Shown: piece after piece, positions 1,123 to 53,169 of the stretch
How positions within the stretch are numbered: position 1 is the stretch's first letter
Layout of the letters: each line of letters opens with the position of its first letter
NCBI GenBank assembly: GCA_964016885.1
Contig: OZ024743.1
Location: 60,636,001 to 60,700,000 of the forward strand
DNA length: 64,000 nt
Origin: Eledone cirrhosa
Taxonomy: Eukaryota
Direction: 5' to 3'
Position numbers and translations under genes: made by a program
Notes under the pieces: generated by a model
The model's database searches: none
What the model was told of the DNA's origin: nothing
What the model saw: only the letters and a program-made list of their open reading frames with translations

Positions 1123-1165
1123 ATCAAAGTTCTTTCGTCACGCATCTGTGACATCATCAGTGGTA
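1122..1165 (-). ncRNA. Minimal type I hammerhead ribozyme motif (same family as 14506)
   Basis: rc reads tacca CTGATGA t gtcac agatgc gtgac GAAA gaac TT|tgata; stem II gtcac/gtgac; abuts (TA)n. Confidence 0.6.
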
Positions 1166-5074: not shown

Positions 5075-5190
5075 TAGGTTTTCTACAGGACTAGAATTCT
5101 TTCATTCGGGAGAAATCATCAGAAATCATCAGGAAGCGGGTTCCTGATGATTTCTCCCGAATGAAACAGCTCTTGTACTGTAGAAGCCTA
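5075..5190 (+). mobile_element. Fold-back mini-element family A with hammerhead motif (5141-5185)
   Basis: Inverted arms around gcggg; ttc CTGATGA tttctcccgaat GAA acag ctcttgta ctgt A|gaa. Confidence 0.7.
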
Positions 5191-5199
5191 GTAGATATT

Positions 5200-5706
<507 letters not shown>

Positions 5707-5707
5707 G

Positions 5708-5871
5708 TCCCAAGCTTCTGATACCATCAACATTATAAACACAGAGCTGGCATTTCTAAAGAACTGACTAACTGCCTGATGAGGTCATAGCCATTCAATG
5801 GCTATCATCGAAATATATATACCAGTAAATAAAGGATTATAAGTTCATGCAATTGACTTATGTTTCGTCAC
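5708..5871 (+). mobile_element. About 163-bp hammerhead mini-element family D, copy 1
   Basis: Same ends (tcccaag...gtcac) as 41211-41373; actgc CTGATGA..atagccat/atggctat..GAAA tatatata|ccagt; (TA)n on both sides. Confidence 0.8.
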
Positions 5872-6750: not shown

Positions 6751-7192
<442 letters not shown>

Positions 7193-12890: not shown

Positions 12891-13186
12891 AACAACAAAA
12901 CGCATGGCTTTGTAGTCAAGGAATTCATTTTCCCAGCAAGAAATTTCAGGTTCACTTTTATTGTTACACTCTGGAAGTCTTCTATTAAATATTAACCAAT
13001 GGCGTATGAGTGAAATTTGGTAAACGGAAACTACAGAATCGCGTCAAATCTCTCTCTCTCTCTTTCTCCCTCTCTCTCTCTCCCCCCCTCTCTCTTTCTA
13101 TCTCTCTCTCTTTCTCCCTCTCTCTCTCCTCCCCCTCTCTCTTTCTATCTCTCTCTCTCTCTCTATCGTTAACAATCATATATATA

Positions 13187-13387
13187 TAGAAGTGGTTACA
13201 CAACAGTTAGTTCACCATACCGAGAACAATTGTTTCACCTTAGCGGATCCTCAGCTGAGGATCCGCTAAGGTGAAACAATTGTTCTCGGTATGGTGAACT
13301 AACTGTTGTGTAACCACTTCTACCTAACTCGTCCCATGGACTGAGTGATCTACCACTACGGATATTACCTTCCAGTGTTCTACCACT
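13187..13387 (+). mobile_element. Fold-back mini-element family C; perfect 136-bp palindrome with hammerhead motif
   Basis: 13187-13322 perfect 68-bp arms centred on cag|ctg; CTGAGGA t cc gctaa gg t GAA ac aatt gt T|ctc; 65-nt tail; homolog 52817-53029. Confidence 0.85.
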
Positions 13388-13517
13388 ATATATATATATA
13401 TAAAGGACGATTTCTTATGTCTTCATTATGTTTATGACGGTGTCGATAAAATAAAGTACCAGTAATGCACTGGGTAATTGCTGGCCTTGTGCCTAAAGTA
13501 GAGACAATTATGTTTAT

Positions 13518-14204: not shown

Positions 14205-14756
14205 ATTGTTATACTTTGGGAGGGTCATGTTGCCAATAAGAAACACACGCACCTGTTGTTTCAATTCAATTTATTATAATAAATTTAGAAATTTATAAAT
14301 TTATAAATTTATAAATTTCCGGTTGGTTGGTTGGTTCCACAACCAGATGGTTGTTTATATATTGTCAAAGTTCTTTCGTAACACATTATATTACCTCTTC
14401 AGTGACTGGGGATTCTTTTCTTTGTTTTTGTGCCTCTCCACACAGAAACAAGATGGCGTAGGACAGAACAAAGGAGAGGCACAAAAACAAAGAAACGAAT
14501 CCCCAGTCACTGAAGTGGTCACAGAATGTGTGACGAAAGAACTTTGACAATATATAAACAACCATCTGGTTGTGGAACCAACCAACCAACCGGAAATTTA
14601 TAAATTCATAAATTTATAAATTTATTATATTAAATTGAAGTGAAAGCTACTGGTGCGTGTGTTTCTTATTGGCAACATAACCCTCCCAAAGTATAACAAT
14701 ATCGGTTTCAACACACGTTTTCAGATAAAGAATCTTGCTAAACAAATTCAGAAACG

Positions 14757-15606: not shown

Positions 15607-16002
15607 TAAGATCAAAAGATGGTTAAAAGAGTTTCATGTATTTTATTATGCGCATTTCAAAAACAAATATCACATGCAATAACATTTGCGTTTTCGTCAG
15701 ATAAAATAGGGAGACATGATATGAAAGTTAAAATGATATGTCGATATGTTGATATGTTGATTTAAAACTGCACTAGTCACAAGTATGTTTTAACCTTCAT
15801 ATCATTTTATCTGACGAAAACGCAAATCTTATTGCATGATGATATTTGTTTTTGAAATGCGCATAATAAAATACATGGAACTCTTTTAACCATCTTTTGA
15901 TCTCATATATTATTATTTATACTCCAGTCCTACAAACTGTAGAGTGCTACTTATCCGATATCTGCATTGCTTTATTGTACTACAATAAAACTCACCTCCT
16001 AC
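15607..16002 (+). mobile_element. Fold-back element with hammerhead motif at 15805-15871
   Basis: 15608-15733 inverted versus 15788-15903; ttttat CTGACGA aaac..gtttt t GAA at gcgc at A|ataaaa. Confidence 0.8.
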
Positions 16003-26366: not shown

Positions 26367-26403
26367 ACTTCTGATGAAGGACTACCGTCTGAAACGTTAA
26401 GAC
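26367..26403 (+). ncRNA. Minimal hammerhead motif (family H)
   Basis: ctt CTGATGA a ggac tacc gtct GAAACGTT|aag; homologs at 44682 and degenerate 2385-2420. Confidence 0.6.
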
Positions 26404-41214: not shown

Positions 41215-41373
41215 AAGGCTCTGATACCATCAACACTATAAAGACAGAGCTGCCATATCTAAGAACTGACTAACTGCCTGATGAGGTTAGAGCCATTCAA
41301 TGGCTATCATCGAAATATATATAGCAGTAAATAAAGGATTATGAGTTCATGCAATTGACTTATGTTTCGTCAC
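41211..41373 (+). mobile_element. Family D hammerhead mini-element, copy 2
   Basis: actgc CTGATGA..agccat/atggct..GAAA tatata TA|gcagt (5-bp stem I, 41273-41328). Confidence 0.82.
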
Positions 41374-44681: not shown

Positions 44682-44717
44682 TCTTCTGATGAAGGACTAG
44701 CGTCCGAAACGTTAAGA
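44682..44717 (+). ncRNA. Minimal hammerhead motif (family H)
   Basis: tctt CTGATGA a ggac tagc gtcc GAAACGTT|aaga; stem III only possible as a dimer through AACGTT. Confidence 0.68.

Positions 44718-52781: not shown

Positions 52782-53169
<388 letters not shown>

What the first reader, a model, noticed from the sequence alone, without database searches (positions are those of the whole stretch)
13187..13387. Perfect 136-bp spacerless palindrome centred on the hammerhead CTGA core
Seen: zero-mismatch 68-bp arms with the axis at cag|ctg, immediately 5' of CTGAGGA. The second copy (52817-53029) turns 9 nt away, and family A copies also turn just 5' of CTGATGA. Inference: reverse transcription stalls or switches template at the ribozyme, and the insertion is very young.
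Basis: partly seen in the sequence, partly recalled or inferred. Interest (0 to 1): 0.7.

Follow-up and report, generated by a model that had tools for sequence, protein, structure and literature searches.

The report
Penelope palindrome marks capped RNA start
This perfect mirror-image sequence is two short end-pieces of a common Penelope-type jumping gene joined head to head, and hundreds of sister copies stop at one base just before the element's predicted self-cutting RNA, often with an extra G, which likely marks the capped start of the copied RNA rather than a stall at the ribozyme.

Summary
The palindrome is real: 68-bp arms, no mismatch, no spacer, 13187-13322. It is a 201-bp head-to-head stub of a Hydra-type Penelope-like retroelement (PLE) in (TA)n. 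Numbering from the C of CTGAGGA as +1, one arm starts at +68 and the other at +133.

In 154 copies sampled without regard to the join, arms end 13 times more often per base at -13..+10 than further upstream.

The cause is probably not the ribozyme. The modal end is -7. There, 49 of 100 arms carry a G where the element has C (control 9 of 59). A second family shows 83 of 100, 30 nt downstream of a TATA box. The predicted cut site shows no peak.

Best reading: two cDNAs, one primed from each target strand, run to the capped RNA 5' end and are joined. This copy is spacerless because the join fell on the self-complementary AGCT. It is young for its family; polymorphism could not be tested.

The architecture is known. 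The cap evidence was not found in my literature searches, but the scan reported it in other genomes.

The parts
13187..13254 (-). Short arm: element positions +1..+68 (C of CTGAGGA = +1) in inverted orientation; its outer end is the inner of two inferred reverse-transcription start sites
   Evidence: 52 of 53 classifiable partner arms of +133-anchored copies end near +68
13255..13387 (+). Long arm: element positions +1..+133; its outer end is the outer inferred start site
   Evidence: 100% identical over 133 nt to L001 on another contig; 1398 exact copies of this end plus TATA
13253..13256 (.). AGCT, element positions -1..+2: self-complementary 4-mer shared by both arms, the microhomology at the join
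   Evidence: the element reads ...ACGAG CTGAGG in long copies; same join in 3 of 81 unbiased joins including a second subfamily (L204)
13255..13295 (+). Minimal type-I hammerhead-like motif: CUGAGGA, 2-bp helix II closed by U-U, GAAA, palindromic helix III AACAAUUGUU, predicted cut 13284|13285, helix I 3' strand. In this copy the 5' strand of helix I is cut back to 2 nt and the motif is buried in the 68-bp hairpin, so it is probably inactive
   Evidence: read from sequence; no Rfam hammerhead match; activity not tested
13323..13387 (+). 65-nt 'tail' between the two start sites; in full-length copies it continues into the leader and ORF
   Evidence: L178 layout
13178..13188 (.). Left (TA)n target; the last TA is shared with element positions +67/+68
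13386..13402 (.). Right (TA)n target; shares TAT with element +133..+135; a target-site duplication cannot be read inside (TA)n
52817..53029 (-). Second, older head-to-head copy of the same family (+133 arm ends at -2, +68 arm at -9)
6786..6985 (+). Family A head-to-head stub (a different hammerhead-bearing family), used as an independent test

Best explanation
The palindrome is a head-to-head pair of 5'-truncated ends of a Hydra-type Penelope-like retroelement, likely made by two cDNAs that were primed from the two cut strands of a (TA)n target at two fixed internal RNA sites (+68 and +133), ran to or near the capped 5' end of the RNA at -7, and were joined through the self-complementary AGCT. 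Shown: element identity, the two fixed outer ends, their almost strict 68/133 pairing, the peak of inner ends at -7 in both arms, the extra G, and microhomology or short insertions at joins. Inferred: that -7 is a transcription start and the G copies the cap; that both target strands prime; that priming on the 5'-most pLTR copy of the transcript explains why so many arms are stubs; that one protein dimer on one RNA does both. The join sits beside the ribozyme because the RNA likely begins inside the ribozyme's helix I.
For: (1) Both arms peak at the same template position although they start 65 nt apart: hazard at -13..+10 is 23 per kb (+133 arms, 28 of 88) and 18 per kb (+68 arms, 22 of 66), against 1.5 per kb upstream of -35. 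(2) Mode at -7: 14 of 235 ends; 281 genome-wide pattern hits at -7 vs 59 at -4. (3) The base before -7 is G in 49 of the first 100 rows, where the element has C; controls are 13 of 100 one base further out and 9 of 59 at -4 (hand counts; Fisher P 5e-8 and 2e-5). By script, 11 of 18 in the unbiased loci. (4) Family A: G in 83 of the first 100 of 1332 rows (hand count) and 23 of 30 by script; TATAAATA lies 30 nt upstream of that base, with CCAAT further up. (5) Joins in which both arms end at the same base, each with G: 4 and 6. (6) Pairing: 52 partners near +68 vs 1 near +133 among 88 +133-anchored copies; 26 vs 0 among 66 +68-anchored copies. (7) In 29 of 81 joins the +68 arm reaches more than 5 nt further 5' than the +133 arm, so neither arm contains the other. 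(8) Arms of one insertion share variants 7 times more often than shuffled pairs (44 of 3975 sites; above all 2000 permutations). (9) In vitro, a PLE protein cuts and extends both strands, starts at two internal sites that bound the tail, and uses uncleaved RNA (PMC11167929). In L1 an extra 5' G reflects capping (PMC11702581).
Against: No RNA data: the 5' end at -7 was not observed (one search listed no RNA holder). Some of the Gs can be templated. About 10 of the 49 in family H may come from the partner arm. In family A, helix I complementarity (AGATTC/GAATCT-C) lets a short partner arm or a cDNA fold-back supply G or TG, and rows ending TCATCAG take G from the partner. Only a minority of arms end exactly at -7; ends spread from -35 to +30, and hazard stays raised at -14..-35 (12.5 and 6.6 per kb), which needs extra starts or another cause. 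Family H has no TATA box 30 nt above -7. 35 of 88 and 40 of 66 copies had no partner or an unclassified partner; one long copy (L182) pairs +67 with +67, and L001 pairs +133 with +133. Most shared variants are subfamily markers, so the data do not separate one RNA from two RNAs of one subfamily. PMC11167929 saw no strand difference in start sites in vitro.
Confidence: 0.75

Rival explanations
1. Reverse transcriptase stalls at the folded hammerhead and switches template or folds back.
For: Ends are enriched across the motif: hazard 8.3 per kb at +11..+30 for +133 arms, above background. The -7 peak lies near the 5' strand of helix I.
Against: The peak is 5' of the core, after the enzyme has passed helices I', III and II. 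The region folds no better than shuffles (z 0.13 to 0.74, and -0.28). A stall does not predict an extra G or a TATA box at -30 in family A. +68 arms show no excess at +11..+30 (3.3 per kb).
Confidence: 0.08
2. Self-priming or fold-back of one strand makes the inverted arm (antisense self-priming proposed in PMC3846280).
For: Arms share subfamily variants; 10 of 81 joins are spacerless; in family A, TG before the arm fits fold-back on helix I.
Against: 29 of 81 joins have arms that each hold sequence the other lacks. +68 is also the outer end of long and solo copies. Both arms can carry the G independently.
Confidence: 0.08
3. The spacerless palindrome is a small non-autonomous master that is copied as a unit.
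For: 16 exact copies of the join; L062 is almost identical to the focal copy. A scan note on this genome reports edited fold-back copies fixed in DNA (e1-8671701, not tested here).
Against: The same join occurs in different subfamilies (L204 vs L162; +94 A vs C among L061-L075) with differing outer ends. Only 3 of 81 joins are of this kind; the rest are nearly all different.
Confidence: 0.05
4. Ribozyme-cleaved RNA is the template, so copies end at the cut.
For: Two unbiased arms end at +31 (L050, L200).
Against: 2 of 154 anchor arms end at +29..+32. Among the first 100 of 421 ends in +22..+35, 2 end at +31 and about 19 at +29..+31, which is no excess (hand count). The focal copy retains +1..+30 on both arms.
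Confidence: 0.02
5. Assembly or sequencing fold-back artefact.
For: Perfect palindromes can arise from fold-back reads (general knowledge); no read or contig spanned this locus.
Against: The palindrome stops at the family's fixed +68 end and does not extend into flanking DNA. Diverged copies with the same join exist. Junction words occur in short-read contigs.
Confidence: 0.02

Closest known systems
EN+ PLE insertions with inverted 5'-truncated pLTR and optional tail (PMC8557442 passages; PMC3846280 passages)
   Same: Head-to-head inverted arm, tail on one side only, partial tandems in long copies, hammerhead in the pLTR, microsatellite target.
   Different: Tail is 65 nt, not 30-40. Many insertions are ORF-less stubs. 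The passages read describe the tail as optional and do not report fixed short/long pairing, an end peak or an extra G.
Hydra clade PLEs (PMC8557442, section 11 read in full)
   Same: Unit about 2.6 kb, RT then C-terminal EN, DKT, CxCX5C linker, CxxC and CxH, (TA)n target, hammerhead.
   Different: RWR instead of RWK in 5 of 5 copies read; no phylogeny was run.
PAc (Poseidon of Anolis) internal initiation in vitro (PMC11167929, parts 1-2 of 4 and passages)
   Same: Two internal start sites bounding the tail in an AC-rich stretch, AT-rich target, both strands extended, uncleaved RNA as template.
   Different: Here the ends share 1-3 nt with the target repeat, and the two sites are used one per side. 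The paper reports no homology and no strand difference, and does not treat inverted insertions.
L1 twin priming and cap-derived 5' G (PMC11702581 passages)
   Same: A second cDNA primed from the reciprocal end gives an inversion joined with microhomology; an extra G marks full-length 5' ends.
   Different: L1's two cDNAs copy adjacent, nearly non-overlapping parts of the RNA from a variable second site. Here both copy the same stretch from fixed sites, giving a palindrome.
Minimal PLE hammerheads (PMC4209133 passages)
   Same: Type I, short helix I, palindromic helix III, U after position 9.
   Different: No G10.1-C11.1 pair; helix II is only 2 bp plus U-U.

Membership tests
EN+ Penelope-like element | Single ORF with RT followed by a GIY-YIG-type endonuclease | tested here: met
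   RT motifs (FDIVDFYPSI, YRDD) and a C-terminal EN-like region (VIYEA...YVGMAE...FKERF) read by eye in linked long copies; Pfam gave no RT or GIY-YIG hit, so domain names rest on motif reading
EN+ Penelope-like element | pLTR partial tandem, inverted 5' copy and tail | tested here: met
   L178, L180, L182, L183, L189
EN+ Penelope-like element | Target-site duplication | tested here: inconclusive
   both flanks are (TA)n
Hydra clade | Short (<3 kb) unit | tested here: met
   2577 bp between successive +133 positions in L178
Hydra clade | DKT in place of DKG | tested here: met
   LSDKTNN in L178 and L179
Hydra clade | CxCX5C linker; CxxC and CxH around the conserved E and N | tested here: met
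   CSCRKPEAC, CGLC..E..N..CPH
Hydra clade | RWK motif | tested here: inconclusive
   RWR at that place in 5 of 5 copies; conservative change
Hydra clade | (TA)n insertion preference | tested here: met
   (TA)n flanks predominate in the 30 loci, which were not selected on flanks
Hydra clade | RT phylogeny groups with Hydra families | not tested
   no reference sequences fetched
Minimal type-I hammerhead | CUGANGA, GAAA and UH core in type-I order | tested here: met
   sequence; subfamily changes fall on N7 (+5) and loop II (+13) and keep CGAG/CUCG
Minimal type-I hammerhead | Palindromic helix III | tested here: met
   AACAATTGTT at +21..+30
Minimal type-I hammerhead | G10.1-C11.1 pair closing helix II | tested here: not met
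   U-U then CC/GG; no Rfam hammerhead match
Minimal type-I hammerhead | Self-cleavage | not testable with these tools
   no assay; no genomic end peak at the predicted cut

The most novel reading that the evidence does not exclude
PLE inverted repeats arise by fixed-register double priming. One protein dimer on one capped, uncleaved RNA primes one target strand at +68 and the other at +133; both cDNAs copy the same stretch to the cap and are joined end to end. Because transcription starts inside helix I, the 5' copy of the hammerhead lacks its distal helix and only the 3' copy is complete. The stubs then map each family's transcription start to the base from DNA alone.
Probability: 0.5. Interest if true: 0.65.

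Novelty: new member of a known kind. Interest (0 to 1): 0.45.

Why it matters
The locus itself is an ordinary dead stub. The population around it bears on an open question: how PLEs build inverted pLTRs and tails (left open in PMC8557442 and PMC11167929; antisense self-priming proposed in PMC3846280). The end peak, the extra G and the 68/133 pairing favour two sense-templated cDNAs. They give predictions that the existing in vitro system can test directly. They also suggest that the ribozyme neither blocks copying nor defines the template end.

Tried and rejected
Rfam: no match at gathering threshold in the window; no hammerhead at E up to 10 on a full copy. Pfam: no relevant family for 3 ORF pieces. 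The repeat finder was swamped by (TA)n. RNA folding gave no stable hammerhead fold. No RNA holder listed, which is no evidence on expression. Reads and contigs could not show presence or absence at this locus, because flanks are microsatellite or high-copy repeat; a few joints near 13167/13386 rest on simple repeats and were not used. The 30 loci were not used for end statistics because the query selects copies reaching +1. Six loci were dropped as duplicates or overlaps (L039, L098, L144, L145, L151, L154) before all counts on the 160 anchored loci. All 160 come from the first 247 Mb of contig C1. L035/L137, L046/L095-type re-sampling was avoided by position, but segmental duplicates other than those six were not screened. 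PMC6431247 passages held nothing relevant. Literature searches that found no report of a cap G or fixed pairing in PLEs. The library lacks most subscription papers, and I read no supplements (Frangieh Figs S1-S2 and Craig files S1-S2 may bear on this).

Full report
Observation. The palindrome is as described: 68-bp arms, no mismatch, no spacer, 13187-13322, axis cag|ctg, then a 65-nt extension to 13387, with (TA)n on both sides. Below, +1 is the C of CTGAGGA (13255).

What it is. The window lies in a 3.0-Gb genome. The +133 end followed by TATA has 1398 exact copies, the +68 end followed by TATA 1600, and the core 23-mer 2985. Upstream of the core, long copies continue through ...CCATTACGAG into a 3' UTR and an ORF. 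L178 holds a pLTR, leader, ORF and pLTR with a 2577-bp unit, and +69..+133 runs on into the leader. The protein has RT motifs, DKT, a CxCX5C linker, CxxC and CxH, and RWR where Hydra has RWK. These match the Hydra clade description in PMC8557442 (section 11). Pfam named nothing and I ran no phylogeny.

Why this copy is spacerless. The element reads ACG-AGCT-GAGG, and its reverse complement CCTC-AGCT-CGT. The join CCTC-AGCT-GAGG therefore uses a 4-nt self-complementary overlap. The exact 24-mer occurs 16 times. In the unbiased set 3 of 81 joins are at AG|CT, one of them in another subfamily, and 10 of 81 are spacerless. Of 81 joins, 29 overlap by 2 nt or more, 17 by 0-1, and 35 carry an insertion. 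The axis is a microhomology hot spot inside a broader end zone.

Where arms end. I sampled by outer end only: 90 copies anchored on +133 and 70 on +68, the first listed on contig C1; 6 duplicates dropped, leaving 88 and 66. Truncation hazard per kb for +133 arms: 1.9-4.1 at +105..+31, 8.3 at +30..+11, 23.4 at +10..-13, 12.5 at -14..-35, and 0-2.9 beyond. For +68 arms: 3.3-4.2, then 18.0, 6.6 and 1.4-1.7. Pooled, 20.7 vs 1.5 per kb. The peak follows template position, not distance copied. The mode is -7 (14 of 235 ends).

What sets the end. Arms ending at -7 number 281 by pattern, and the next base is G in 49 of the first 100 rows (T 28, A 23) where the element has C (hand count). Controls are 13 of 100 at the next base out and 9 of 59 for ends at -4; P 5e-8 and 2e-5. 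A script found 11 of 18 in the unbiased loci. Family A (15,677 exact hits) has CCAAT and TATAAATA upstream, the latter 30 nt before the A at -6. Of 1332 arms ending there, 83 of the first 100 rows have G (hand count) and 23 of 30 by script. Several rows are plain (TA)n-G-arm. Ten joins have both arms complete, each with G. An extra G at full-length 5' junctions is the cap signature in L1 (PMC11702581 passage), and Penelope transcripts start within the upstream pLTR (PMC2377424 passage). Against this: part of the G excess can be templated by the partner arm or, in family A, by helix I; the pattern excludes one (TA)n register; many ends are not at the mode; and family H has no TATA at -30. It has a conserved TGCGCATGCGC about 45 nt upstream, whose NRF1-like label is recalled and untested. 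No RNA run was available. The predicted cut site (+30|+31) shows no peak: 2 of 154 anchor arms and 2 of the first 100 of 421 rows (hand count). This agrees with uncleaved RNA as the dominant substrate in vitro (PMC11167929).

Two cDNAs. Among +133-anchored copies, 52 have a partner ending near +68, 1 near +133, 13 other and 22 none. Among +68-anchored copies, 26 have a +133 partner, none a +68 partner, 8 other and 32 none. Long copies follow the rule in both polarities, with L182 and L001 as exceptions. In 29 of 81 joins the +68 arm reaches further 5' than the +133 arm, so neither is a copy of the other. Arms share variants more often than shuffled pairs (1.1% vs 0.15% of sites), mostly subfamily markers, with 5 private ones. 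One source is indicated; one RNA molecule is not proven. The PAc protein extends both strands from two internal sites that bound the tail and is predicted to be a dimer (PMC11167929). PMC3846280 instead proposed self-priming on an antisense template. The sense-strand G on both arms and the non-nested arms argue against that for these families.

Age. Arm-to-arm divergence averages 5.6% (221 of 3975 sites), and 1 of 47 pairs of 45 nt or more has no difference. The focal copy has none and equals L001 over 133 nt. It carries A at +94, where about 93% of reads have C, marking a minor young subfamily. It was picked for being perfect, so this only places it among the youngest copies. Polymorphism is untested.

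Comparison and verdict. The architecture is the known PLE inverted pLTR plus tail, in a probable Hydra family. The -7 peak with extra G and the fixed pairing were not found in six literature searches; supplements were not read. Papers seen: PMC11167929 parts 1-2 of 4 and passages; PMC8557442 passages and section 11; PMC3846280, PMC4209133, PMC2377424, PMC11702581 and PMC6431247 passages; 10.64898/2026.07.22.740005 part 1 of 5. My reading was fixed before the scan look-up. The scan had reached the same cap reading in other genomes; those are unchecked notes and not counted as support. Interest 0.45: an ordinary locus with a useful, testable mechanistic signal.

Noticed in passing
L057, L100, L113, L124 (also L010, L011, L020, L023, L027): A (CT)n run lies between the element end (TTCT) and the outer (TA)n in 4 of 52 short arms. 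It may come from slippage during priming, so the RT may add microsatellite sequence.
   Followed up: partly
L064 (G000:C2:166114564): Spacerless AGCT palindrome with both arms to +133, each carrying the same internal (TA)n insert at +65; perfect for about 200 bp. Possibly later homogenisation or a fold-back artefact.
   Followed up: partly
L189, L178, L180: Full-length cDNAs run past the 5' pLTR to -625, -226 and -129, so some templates are tandem, read-through or circular RNAs.
   Followed up: no
window 1133-1160 and 14374-14402 (-), 5776-5813 and 41278-41315 (+), 26371-26394 and 44686-44709 (+), 15655-15857: At least four further hammerhead-core families in the window; 15655-15857 is an inverted pair.
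   Followed up: no
window 5144-5200 and 6854-6985: Family A has the same U-U pair at the base of a very short helix II, and its helix I 5' strand begins exactly at the inferred transcription start.
   Followed up: partly
G000:C1:143338024-143785347: Seven copies of the family end at 47-59 kb spacing on one strand, suggesting a large tandem segmental duplication.
   Followed up: no
window 13437-13510: A very high-copy repeat begins about 50 bp right of the insertion (read depth about 30 times that of the PLE end).
   Followed up: no
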